Source: the human T2T-CHM13v2.0 reference genome, Homo sapiens. Taken from it: a stretch of 64,000 nt of DNA. Below the pieces are notes generated by a model that searched no databases, was not told the origin of the DNA, and saw only the letters and a list, made by a program, of their open reading frames with translations. The position numbers and the translations under genes are program-made. The stretch lies in assembly GCF_009914755.1 (NCBI RefSeq), contig NC_060925.1; one strand, written 5' to 3'. This document shows, piece after piece, positions 27,405-28,447 of the stretch; positions within the stretch are counted from its first letter, which is position 1; the number at the start of each line of letters is the position of its first letter.

Positions 27405-27700
27405 CTCGGAAAGGGAACTCCCTGACCCCTTGCGCTTCCCAGGTGAGGCAATGCCTCGCCCTGCTTCGGCTTGCGCACGGTGCGCACACACACTGGCCTG
27501 CGCCCACTGTCTGGCACTCCCTAGTGAGATGAACCCGGTACCTCAGATGGAAATGCAGAAATCACCCGTCTTCTGCGTCGCTCACGCTGGGAGCTGTAGA
27601 CCGGAGCTGTTCCTATTCGGCCATCTTGGCTCCTCCCTCGGAATCTATTTCTTAAACACAGACATCAGAAGCTTAACCAACTCAACCTACTTCCTTGCAG

Positions 27701-27798
27701 GAGTGAGTCCGTGCTGCTGCACATGCCCCAGCCTGTGAATCCAGAGCTCACTACAGGGCGCATCACAGGACTGGTGGACAGGCTCAACCACTTCCGAG
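27701..27798 (+). pseudogene. Isolated 98-nt internal exon of a TRIM43/TRIM49/TRIM51-family gene (linker preceding the B30.2/SPRY domain)
   Basis: Acceptor CTACTTCCTTGCAG|G and donor GAG|GTGAGT. Translates (phase 2 to 1) as (R)[32 protein letters not shown], closely matching recalled TRIM43/49 sequence [11 protein letters not shown](V/L)NPEL(T/S)AGPITGL..RLN.FR. Confidence 0.85.
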
Positions 27799-28447
27799 GT
27801 GAGTGTCACAATTTTTCTTAAACAAAGCTACTGCTCTTTGCTTTGTGAAGTGGTAATCCCTGTTCCTGGCCCGGTGGGAAAACATACCAGTAGCGTGCTG
27901 GGAATCTAATGTGGTGAGAACGTTTTACTGGGGGCGCACAAAGGAGGAAAATATTCCAGACATGCTAAGGCTAAGAATGGCTCCCCAGAAAACGGATACC
28001 TGAGAAAAGGGAGAATCAATTTTGATTTGCAGATACTCTTATGTTTTCATTAATTCCTGCTGGTACATCCATTACATAACTCTAGGTCAAGAAGAGAATT
28101 TGTATATCTGTTGGAAAACCTTTAGCCAGAGAAATTAAAGATGATATCAAATGAGTCACTGTGCTAAGGAGAAGCAACCAAGGAACTCCAAAATTAAACC
28201 CAGCCCTGCTTTCTCTGCTTTTTCTTTCACAGTTTTGGATTCCATGTTTCCAAAGTAATCTTAGTCTTTTAAATTCCTAAGAGTCATTAATCTGTTTTAG
28301 GAACAATATTAAAATTGTATAATTAGAATTTAAAACATCACAAACTATTATTAAATCAATAGTTAGGTTTTTCCAAATACACATCTAGTGTTTAACTGTC
28401 CTCTAGTCTTATGAACTGTTTCTCTATTTCTGTTTAATATGAATAGA

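What the first reader, a model, noticed from the sequence alone, without database searches (positions are those of the whole stretch)
27689..27810. Orphan TRIM43/49-family exon with intact splice sites, in sense orientation inside embigin intron 1
Seen: a 98-nt exon (27701-27798) with a pyrimidine-rich acceptor and a consensus GTGAGT donor encodes [33 protein letters not shown] saw no other TRIM exon in the window. Known (from recall): this peptide matches the pre-SPRY linker of the TRIM43/48/49/51/53 group. Inference: this is retrotransposon-mediated exon shuffling caught at an early stage. Spliced to exon 1 (phase 1) it reads [12 protein letters not shown] (stop 27736-27738), so it would act as a poison exon for transcripts from the CpG-island promoter.
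Basis: partly seen in the sequence, partly recalled or inferred. Interest (0 to 1): 0.8.

Follow-up and report, generated by a model that had tools for sequence, protein, structure and literature searches.

The report
TRIM exon delivered by young L1
A 167-base piece of a TRIM49-type gene, holding one complete exon with working-looking splice signals, was carried into the embigin pseudogene EMBP1 on the front end of a young L1 retrotransposon whose insertion also deleted an embigin exon; this is a clean natural case of retrotransposon-mediated exon transfer, but no function is shown.

Summary
Window 27701-27798 is a 98-nt exon with an AG acceptor and a GTGAGT donor, and it encodes the stated peptide. 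It is 94-98% identical to the pre-SPRY exon of eight TRIM43/49-type loci on chr11 and chr2. No other TRIM exon lies in the window.

It is not a free-standing fragment. The TRIM-derived DNA is exactly 27640-27806 (167 nt). It abuts nucleotide 1 of a full-length minus-strand L1 (21578-27639) that is 99% identical to dozens of other copies and is called L1HS in three papers. The L1's other end carries a 183-nt 3' transduction from chr15:28.93 Mb, then a poly(A) tail at a TTTT/A target site.

The 6,421-nt composite replaced 592 bp of the parental embigin sequence. The lost stretch includes embigin coding exon 2 (residues 39-65, PDB 7yr5_B). So "intron 1" is a fusion of introns 1 and 2.

The "poison exon" reading is not, because EMBP1's frame already stops in its third exon and no inclusion data were reachable.

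More relevant is that the exon sits 61 nt downstream of this L1's antisense promoter. Published data show that promoter drives EMBP1-chimeric RNAs in hundreds of tumours. Whether they use the exon is untested.

The parts
21384..21387 (+). TTTT of the target site. The parental chr5 sequence reads CATTTT/ATC, an L1-endonuclease-type TTTT/A site. This is the last stretch homologous to chr5 EMB on the left.
   Evidence: chr5 homology ends at window 21387 (chr5 51247844).
21388..21394 (-). Poly(A) tail of the retrotransposed RNA, seen as poly(T). It is 7-15 nt depending on how the flanking T's are assigned.
   Evidence: a T-run that is absent from both chr5 and chr15.
21395..21577 (-). 183-nt 3' transduction copied from chr15:28932651-28932843. 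It holds an Alu-monomer-like element with an AATAAA-rich tail plus 18 nt of unique flank. The copy ends about 20 nt after the last AATAAA of the chr15 sequence.
   Evidence: 96% over 193 aligned nt, made up of 2 substitutions and one 4-nt indel inside the piece. It is the only such match in the genome besides an 82% tandem relative.
21578..27639 (-). Full-length young L1 (called L1HS in print), including a 42-nt impure A-tail (21578-21619). ORF1 is intact (338 aa, 25717-26733). ORF2 is interrupted near 24550-24575. L1 nucleotide 1 is window 27639.
   Evidence: ORFs; 39 of 39 other listed copies are at 99% in both the 5'UTR and the 3' end; 98.9-99.1% to 5 copies, 2 of which begin with the same GAGGGAGGAGCC. 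PMC13184619, PMC10760525 and PMC10778729 call it L1HS.
27640..27700 (+). 61 nt of TRIM49-type intron carried with the exon. It includes a TTAAC branch-point-like motif (A at 27676), the pyrimidine tract and the AG.
   Evidence: contiguous with the exon in all 8 full-length-matching TRIM loci. The branch-point consensus is recalled.
27701..27798 (+). 98-nt TRIM49-type exon, the coding exone between the coiled-coil exons and the PRY-SPRY exon. It reads SESVLL...NHFR in frame 2.
27799..27806 (+). 8 nt of TRIM49-type downstream intron holding the GTGAGT donor. In the donor locus the last base (27806) lies on an Inr-like motif of the antisense strand.
   Evidence: The Inr consensus YYANWYY is recalled.
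27807..27808 (+). CA, two bases found in neither the TRIM loci nor chr5. They are junction filler. The C would be an extra G on the L1-sense strand, as a cap-copied base would be.
27809..28194 (+). Resumption of homology to chr5 EMB (intron 2 of the parental gene) at chr5 51247251. The 592 bp between the two chr5 break points (51247252-51247843), including EMB exon 2 (51247301-51247384), have no counterpart in the window.
   Evidence: the exon-2 translation matches embigin residues 39-65 of PDB 7yr5_B at 27 of 27 positions, E 2.7e-12.
27159..27245 (+). Approximate position of two published antisense-strand TSSs in 'L1HS_5end' that give EMBP1-chimeric RNAs (about L1 nt 481 and 395). The mapping from hg38 uses an offset based on my recalled hg38 EMBP1 start, so it is good only to within a few bases.
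   Evidence: TEITbase Table S3 rows TE_2868 and TE_2869; this is the only L1 5' end inside EMBP1 in the window.

Best explanation
The 'orphan exon' is cargo of a single L1 retrotransposition. A young full-length L1 was transcribed from a progenitor at chr15:28.93 Mb and read through into 183 nt of chr15 flank. That transcript was polyadenylated after an AATAAA. It integrated by target-primed reverse transcription at a TTTT/A site in EMBP1. At the far (5') end of the L1 cDNA, 167 nt copied from a TRIM49-type locus were attached directly to L1 nucleotide 1. This piece comprises 61 nt of intron, the 98-nt exon and 8 nt of intron.

The insertion resolved without target-site duplication and removed 592 bp of target, including the homologue of embigin exon 2. 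These steps are shown by sequence.

How the TRIM piece was attached is inferred. My preferred route (about 45%) is that the reverse transcriptase, after finishing the L1 RNA, continued on a short capped RNA antisense to a TRIM49-type gene, or that such a cDNA was captured during a messy 5' junction repair. A true 5' transduction through two generations (TRIM locus to chr15 to EMBP1) is the close second (about 35%).

The exon encodes nothing useful here. Its likely present-day effect, if any, is as the first splice-competent exon and strongest donor 61-160 nt downstream of the L1's active antisense promoter. That would shape L1HS-EMBP1 chimeric non-coding RNAs, and this is inferred, not shown.
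For: Boundaries: TRIM homology is exactly 27640-27806, at 98.2% (3 of 167 differ, 2 of them CpG transitions) to chr11:89.807 and 89.877 Mb. L1 nucleotide 1 is at 27639, the same start as 2 of 5 closest copies.

3' side: 21395-21577 matches chr15:28932651-28932843 with 3 differences. That sequence ends about 20 nt after an AATAAA and is followed by a T-run absent from chr15 and chr5.

Target: the parental chr5 reads CATTTT/ATC at the left break. Homology resumes at 27809, there is no duplication, and 592 bp are missing, including a true embigin exon.

Youth: 39 of 39 listed relatives are at 99% for both ends.

RNA-copy hints for the TRIM piece: its distal end falls on a YYANWYY-type initiator on the antisense strand of the donor loci, and the next base is an extra G in L1 sense (consensus recalled).

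Promoter context: TEITbase lists + strand TSSs in this L1HS 5' end giving EMBP1 chimeras in 807 and 268 TCGA tumours, against 2 and 1 adjacent-normal samples and 1 and 0 GTEx samples. It also reports qPCR validation. A CRISPRa study proposes the antisense intronic L1HS as an alternative EMBP1 promoter. The donor at 27799 ranks first among GT sites downstream of those TSSs.
Against: No progenitor was found. The chr15 site is empty in this assembly, and 0 of 8 TRIM loci carrying the full 167 nt have an L1 beside the exon.

There are no sibling insertions with either transduced piece.

The pieces differ from their best sources by 3 events each. That is slightly more than expected for an L1HS-age event, so the true sources may be alleles or paralogues absent from this assembly.

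A template jump from a full-length L1 RNA onto an unrelated 167-nt RNA is rarely documented (recalled).

The Inr and extra-G arguments rest on one position each and were tested post hoc.

Exon use in RNA is unverified. The single RefSeq transcript skips it, and strong donors also exist inside the L1 (27443, 27380, 27295).
Confidence: 0.85

Rival explanations
1. Classical 5' transduction in two generations. An L1 sat antisense in a TRIM49-type intron 61 nt upstream of the exon. A transcript starting 167 nt upstream of it retrotransposed to chr15:28.93 Mb. That daughter was again transcribed from the same start, read through into the chr15 flank, and inserted in EMBP1.
For: The TRIM piece abuts L1 nucleotide 1 with no extra bases. 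Its distal end lies on an initiator-like motif in the donor loci, followed by an extra G in L1 sense. In L1 sense, a TT/AAGAAA endonuclease-like site lies 14 nt before the junction, as a target-site duplication of a progenitor would (by eye).
Against: It needs two progenitors that are both absent from this assembly (0 of 8 TRIM loci, and an empty chr15 site). It also needs re-use of exactly the same upstream start at chr15 without the TRIM-locus promoter. Only 2 bases lie between the TRIM piece and the target, so no chr15 5' flank was carried. The L1's YY1-box region is intact, which should favour initiation at +1 (recalled biology).
Confidence: 0.35
2. DNA-level filler. The TRIM fragment is a piece of chr11 or chr2 DNA captured by end joining or templated repair when the 5' junction of the L1 insertion was sealed, with no RNA intermediate.
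For: The insertion resolved abnormally, with a 592-bp deletion, no duplication and a 2-nt filler, which points to end-joining repair. The fragment is unspliced genomic sequence.
Against: 167 nt from another chromosome is long for templated end-joining filler (recalled). The initiator-like position of one end and the exact fusion to L1 nucleotide 1 are not expected for a random DNA fragment.
Confidence: 0.1
3. One reading: the exon is spliced into transcripts from the EMBP1 CpG-island promoter and acts as a poison exon.
For: The splice signals are intact and inherited from a working gene. Inclusion after exon 1 gives an in-frame stop at 27736-27738.
Against: The annotated EMBP1 splice form already terminates after 117 codons in its third exon, so there is no productive frame to poison. 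The only RefSeq transcript skips the exon (hub annotation). No junction data were reachable. The primer table (Table S10) of PMC13184619 is not in the held text.
Confidence: 0.08
4. The TRIM fragment was already in EMBP1 before the L1 arrived, or the whole block came by segmental duplication or gene conversion rather than retrotransposition.
For: The region is pericentromeric and rich in duplications (hub annotation; recalled).
Against: The block's left end is a poly(A) tail placed after a polyadenylation signal at a TTTT/A site. The L1 has no target-site duplication of its own between the two foreign pieces. Neither foreign piece extends beyond the block. No other locus in the assembly holds the combination.
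Confidence: 0.03

Closest known systems
L1 3' transduction and L1-mediated exon shuffling (shown in cultured cells by Moran, DeBerardinis and Kazazian 1999; recalled, not read here)
   Same: An L1 transcript carries non-L1 flanking DNA to a new locus. Here a 183-nt chr15 flank with its own poly(A) signal sits between the L1 tail and a second poly(A), and a complete exon with both splice sites lands in sense inside a transcribed gene.
   Different: The exon is at the L1's 5' end, not in the 3' transduced part, and it comes from a different chromosome than the 3' flank. The recipient is a pseudogene.
5' transduction families, e.g. SVA elements carrying MAST2 exon 1 (Damert 2009, Hancks 2009; recalled)
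   Same: Gene-derived sequence is fused to the 5' end of a retrotransposon and moved with it.
   Different: Those families have many members and a spliced, promoter-bearing 5' part. Here there is one copy, an unspliced intron-exon-intron piece antisense to the element, and no progenitor found.
Chimeric retrogenes made by L1 reverse-transcriptase template switching, e.g. U6-L1 (Buzdin and colleagues 2002-2003; recalled)
   Same: A foreign RNA copy is joined to the 5' end of an L1 copy within one set of insertion boundaries.
   Different: Known cases mostly join abundant small RNAs to 5'-truncated L1s. Here the L1 is full length and the partner would be a rare antisense intronic RNA.
L1 insertion-mediated deletions (Gilbert 2002, Symer 2002, Han 2005; recalled)
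   Same: An endonuclease-type first nick, no target-site duplication, and loss of target DNA (592 bp) at the insertion.
   Different: The deletion removed a coding exon homologue, and the insertion supplied a foreign exon in the same orientation about 0.4 kb from where it had been.
L1 antisense-promoter chimeric transcripts, including the published L1HS-EMBP1 transcript (PMC13184619, PMC10778729; passages and Table S3 read)
   Same: It is the same L1 and the same strand. Published TSSs lie about 400-480 nt inside the L1 and the RNAs join EMBP1 exons.
   Different: None of the passages or tables I could read mentions the TRIM-derived exon, the exon-2 deletion or the transductions.

Membership tests
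Class-IV TRIM gene (RING, B-box, coiled coil, PRY/SPRY), TRIM43/49 subgroup | The exon is homologous to a coding exon of genes that carry RING, B-box and SPRY domains on the same strand | tested here: met
   At chr2:96.10 Mb, PF15227 scores 35.6 bits (cut-off 30), PF00643 scores 25.0 (24.1) and PF00622 scores 47.7 (26.3), flanking the homologous exon. At chr11:89.99 Mb SPRY scores 42.3. Gene names (TRIM43, TRIM49 and so on) are recalled from chromosomal position, not from a call.
Class-IV TRIM gene (RING, B-box, coiled coil, PRY/SPRY), TRIM43/49 subgroup | The window itself holds a TRIM gene or pseudogene with other TRIM exons | tested here: not met
   tblastn of 4 other ORF segments of the chr2 locus found nothing below E 0.4 in the window, and blastn of 6 kb of the locus found only 27640-27806 plus repeat hits. 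The 32-aa peptide alone has no Pfam or PDB hit.
L1 target-primed reverse transcription insertion | Poly(A) at the 3' end, abutting a TTTT/A-type target site | tested here: met
L1 target-primed reverse transcription insertion | Target-site duplication flanking the insertion | tested here: not met
   There is no duplication. A 592-bp target deletion is present instead. This is a known variant outcome (recalled).
L1 3' transduction | Unique non-L1 DNA between the L1 tail and a second poly(A), matching one other locus and ending after a poly(A) signal | tested here: met
L1 3' transduction | A progenitor L1 is present at the source locus | tested here: not met
   chr15:28922000-28934343 holds no L1 adjoining the match in this assembly. 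Other human haplotypes could not be searched.
L1 5' transduction | Unique DNA directly abutting L1 nucleotide 1 and lying inside the insertion boundaries | tested here: met
L1 5' transduction | A progenitor L1 with the same 5' flank exists | tested here: not met
   0 of 8 loci holding the full 167 nt have an L1 within 1.5 kb of it.
Cassette or poison exon | Functional-looking acceptor, branch point and donor, and a premature stop when included | tested here: met
   The scoring matrix and branch-point consensus are recalled.
Cassette or poison exon | Inclusion in RNA, and a productive host reading frame that inclusion would interrupt | tested here: not met
   The host frame already stops at window 46361. 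Inclusion in RNA is not testable with these tools.

The most novel reading that the evidence does not exclude
A recent, probably human-lineage L1HS insertion swapped an embigin exon for a TRIM49 exon taken from another chromosome. Together with its own antisense promoter, it created a new promoter plus first-exon module. Under this reading, the tumour-specific L1HS-EMBP1 RNAs seen in hundreds of TCGA samples are spliced through the transferred exon or its donor. That would be a natural case of L1 5'-end-mediated exon shuffling that is actually used in RNA.
Probability: 0.35. Interest if true: 0.65.

Novelty: new member of a known kind. Interest (0 to 1): 0.45.

Why it matters
Exon shuffling by L1 was demonstrated in cell culture, but clean natural examples are scarce in which a whole exon with both splice sites lands in sense inside a transcribed locus. 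This one has every junction readable:
- the endonuclease site;
- the poly(A) tail;
- a 3' transduction from chr15;
- a full-length L1;
- a 5'-attached exon from a chr11/chr2 gene family;
- a 2-nt filler;
- a 592-bp deletion that removed the resident exon.

It also shows that one insertion can combine sequence from three chromosomes. In practical terms, it flags that published L1HS-EMBP1 tumour transcripts may contain TRIM49-like sequence. Such sequence could mis-map in RNA-seq to the DUX4-target TRIM49 genes, or the reverse. Because the recipient is a pseudogene, the biological consequence is probably small.

Tried and rejected
- **Peptide-only identification failed:** P0001 gave no Pfam family and no PDB sequence match at E up to 10. 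Identity had to come from DNA matches and gene context.
- **Closest TRIM locus is degenerate:** chr11:89.807 Mb gave only sub-threshold, fragmented SPRY hits (17.8 and 20.1 bits against a cut-off of 26.3). I therefore used chr2:96.10 and chr11:89.99 Mb for the membership test.
- **Progenitor next to the TRIM exon:** none at 8 of 8 loci.
- **Progenitor at chr15:** none.
- **Sibling insertions:** none.
- **Exon structure or primers of L1HS-EMBP1 RNAs:**
  - PMC10778729 supplement has no 'EMBP1'.
  - PMC10760525 supplement has neither 'EMBP1' nor the transcript id.
  - PMC4908685's 10 supplementary files have no 'EMBP1'.
  - Table S10 of PMC13184619 lies beyond the stored part of the file.
- **Literature searches that returned nothing:** EMBP1+TRIM49, TRIM49+L1HS, and phrases with '5 transduction'. 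The last probably failed because the prime sign cannot be searched, so those two say nothing about what is in print.
- **Twin-priming-type model:** I considered a model in which the target's free 3' end primes on sense TRIM49 pre-mRNA. There is no complementarity at the junction, so it is not favoured.
- **Shared 11-mer as a target-site duplication:** I considered the 11-mer shared by the two foreign pieces. It is 38 nt from the L1 end, and the chr15 reference shares only 8 nt, so I rejected it.

Full report
**1. The observation**

Window 27701-27798 is a 98-nt open segment. It is preceded by a pyrimidine-rich tract and AG (27699-27700) and followed by GTGAGT (27799-27804). Frame 2 gives [32 protein letters not shown].

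A search of the window's own assembly with 27642-27900 gave 40 scored rows of 42 candidates:
- the window itself;
- 8 loci matching the whole of 27642-27806 at 94-98% (five at chr11:89.69-89.99 Mb, one at chr11:49.24 Mb, three at chr2:95.98-97.53 Mb);
- 30 loci on chr11 and chr2 matching only the exon and a few flanking bases at 73-91%;
- one chr5 locus matching only 27809-27900 at 95%.

The peptide alone is too short for Pfam or PDB searches. Gene context settles the family instead. At chr2:96.10 Mb the homologous exon lies on one strand between two coiled-coil-type ORFs and a SPRY ORF (47.7 bits). It lies downstream of an ORF with RING (35.6 bits) and B-box (25.0 bits), all above Pfam's cut-offs. 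The names TRIM43 and TRIM49 for these loci are my recall from chromosomal position.

No other TRIM exon is in the window.

**2. What surrounds it**

The TRIM-derived DNA is exactly 27640-27806. On its left it meets the 5' end of a minus-strand L1. The L1's first bases, GAGGGAGGAGCC ending at 27639, are the same start seen in 2 of the 5 closest copies examined. So the L1 is complete, and the TRIM piece touches its nucleotide 1 with no extra base.

The L1 runs to 21578, including a 42-nt impure A-tail. ORF1 is open (338 aa). ORF2 is interrupted near 24550-24575.

It is young. For a 942-nt 5' query and a 781-nt 3' query, all 39 other listed copies were 99% identical (40 scored of 3678 and 2169 candidates). 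Five copies compared directly differ at 8-10 of about 940 positions. Three papers call it L1HS. Its 3'UTR reads ACG at the position I recall as distinguishing pre-Ta from Ta elements.

**3. The other end of the L1**

Between the L1's tail and the parental embigin sequence lie 183 nt (21395-21577) that are not in chr5. They match chr15:28932651-28932843 with two substitutions and one 4-nt indel. The only other comparable match is an 82% tandem relative 3.3 kb away. The remaining rows are Alu-type partial hits.

The piece consists of an Alu-monomer-like element with an AATAAA-rich tail and 18 nt of unique flank. The copy stops about 20 nt after the last AATAAA of the chr15 sequence. A run of T follows (A on the L1 strand) that neither chr15 nor chr5 has.

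This is the signature of a 3' transduction. An L1 once sat at that chr15 site, its transcript ran on to the next poly(A) signal, and that RNA was inserted here. In this assembly the chr15 site holds no L1, so the progenitor is absent or lost.

**4. The target**

Alignment to the parental EMB locus on chr5 gives 93.0% over 1030 nt on the left and 96.4% over 386 nt on the right.
- Homology stops at window 21387 (chr5 51247844). There chr5 reads CATTTT/ATC, an L1-endonuclease-type site.
- Homology resumes at window 27809 (chr5 51247251), after two unassigned bases, CA.

There is no target-site duplication. The 592 chr5 bases in between are missing from the window. They contain an 84-nt segment with AG and GT borders that keeps the frame between exon 1 and the next exon. 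Its translation is identical at 27 of 27 positions to residues 39-65 of embigin in PDB 7yr5_B (E 2.7e-12).

So the 6,421-nt composite (21388-27808) replaced 592 bp including embigin exon 2. What RefSeq shows as EMBP1 intron 1 is the left part of intron 1 fused to the right part of intron 2. The TRIM exon lies in the same orientation, close to where exon 2 had been.

**5. How the TRIM piece got onto the L1**

Shown: it lies inside the insertion's boundaries, fused to L1 nucleotide 1, unspliced, and comes from a TRIM49-type locus. The best matches are chr11:89,807,567 (+) and its inverted twin at 89,876,633 (-). Three of 167 bases differ, at 27671, 27772 and 27796, and two of these are CpG transitions.

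Inferred: the + strand of the window is the strand extended from the target's TTTT 3' end. A continuous cDNA would therefore have copied an RNA antisense to the TRIM gene.

Two small features fit an RNA 5' end at 27806. In the donor loci that base is the A of a CCACACT motif on the antisense strand, which fits the initiator consensus YYANWYY (recalled; about 1 in 128 by chance). The next base in the window is an extra G in L1 sense, as seen when a cap is copied (recalled). Both are single-position, post hoc arguments.

I see two live routes.
- **(a) One step, about 45%.** The progenitor was an ordinary L1HS at chr15. After completing the L1 RNA, the reverse transcriptase continued on a short capped antisense RNA from a TRIM49-type locus, or such a cDNA was captured while the 5' junction was repaired. 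The abnormal resolution (large deletion, no duplication, 2-nt filler) fits a disorderly junction. This route needs only one missing progenitor.
- **(b) Two steps, about 35%.** An L1 in a TRIM49-type intron was transcribed from 167 nt upstream and inserted at chr15. That daughter was transcribed from the same start and read into the chr15 flank. The exact abutment to nucleotide 1 and an endonuclease-like TT/AAGAAA site 14 nt from the junction fit this. But it needs two missing progenitors (0 of 8 TRIM loci have an L1 there). It also needs the same upstream start to be used twice.

DNA filler capture (about 10%) and a pre-existing fragment or duplication (about 3%) fit the hallmarks less well.

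TRIM48 and TRIM49 are described as DUX4 target genes (PMC11735616, passage read). I recall that DUX4 acts at zygotic genome activation. This would put TRIM49-locus transcription in cells where heritable L1 insertions can arise. That link is speculation.

**6. What it does now**

As a coding element it does nothing. In the TRIM frame it is an isolated 32 codons. Joined to EMBP1 exon 1 it reads [12 protein letters not shown] and stops. The 'poison exon' idea has no productive frame to act on, because the annotated EMBP1 splice form already stops after 117 codons at window 46361. The one RefSeq transcript skips the exon.

The context that matters is the L1's antisense promoter.
- TEITbase Table S3 lists two + strand TSSs in 'L1HS_5end' for EMBP1-chimeric RNAs. 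One is hg38 chr1:121537873 (807 TCGA tumours, 2 adjacent-normal, 1 GTEx). The other is 121537787 (268, 1, 0). The authors report qPCR detection of L1HS-EMBP1 in NCI-H520 and BEAS-2B cells.
- A CRISPRa study proposes the antisense intronic L1HS as an alternative EMBP1 promoter.
- Only one L1 5' end lies inside EMBP1 in the window.
- With an hg38-to-T2T offset taken from my recalled hg38 EMBP1 start, the TSSs fall near window 27159 and 27245, about L1 nt 481 and 395.

Every such RNA must cross 27640-27806. Three L1-internal donors follow, at 27443, 27380 and 27295. The exon's acceptor is the first one outside the L1 that has a good tract.

I put about even odds on the exon or its donor being used in a visible share of these RNAs. 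No junction data were reachable.

**7. Novelty**

Each ingredient is known: 3' transduction, insertion-mediated deletion, 5'-attached foreign sequence, and antisense-promoter chimeras. The L1HS and its EMBP1 chimeras are in print.

I found no description of the TRIM-derived exon, the exon-2 deletion or the chr15 transduction. Searches for EMBP1+TRIM49 and TRIM49+L1HS returned 0 papers. Of the 8 papers holding both EMBP1 and LINE-1, I read EMBP1 passages in only three, and none mentions these features. Supplements I could not see may bear on this.

It is a new, unusually legible member of a known kind, sitting in a pseudogene. That makes it of moderate interest.

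Noticed in passing
An unspliced antisense-promoter RNA could therefore encode a junction-spanning peptide of about 96 aa.
   Followed up: no
window 21566-21576 and 27678-27688: The chr15-derived and TRIM-derived pieces share an exact 11-mer (CAACTCAACCT) in direct orientation. 13 of 2000 shuffles reach 11. But the chr15 reference shares only 8 nt, because the window copy lacks 4 A's there. It is probably chance, and remains unexplained.
   Followed up: partly
window 25717-26733 (-) and 21825-25653 (-): The L1 has an open 338-aa ORF1 and an ORF2 split into 367- and 916-aa pieces. 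PMC10760525 (passage read) reports a sense-strand cryptic-TSS transcript from 'an L1HS element in the intron of EMBP1' whose ORF1-like protein has mass-spectrometry support in H1299 cells.
   Followed up: partly
L028 (chr11:89800500-89810400), positions 8295-9254: The TRIM49-type locus closest in sequence to the transferred piece has its SPRY region broken into several frames, with only sub-threshold Pfam hits (17.8 and 20.1 bits). It is probably itself a pseudogene, and it has an inverted twin at chr11:89.877 Mb.
   Followed up: partly
window 46361: Apart from the in-frame loss of exon 2, EMBP1 keeps the embigin frame from ATG 8717 through 117 codons before a stop in its third annotated exon.
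   Followed up: partly
window 63672-64000 (+): A second L1 5' end lies in sense orientation downstream of EMBP1 and runs off the window. It is 91% identical to the intronic L1's 5'UTR. It is possibly the 'sense L1PA3 downstream of EMBP1' of PMC10778729.
   Followed up: no
L013 (chr15:28936019-28936207): An 82% relative of the transduced chr15 segment lies 3.3 kb from the 96% match, so the source region is an old local duplication.
   Followed up: no
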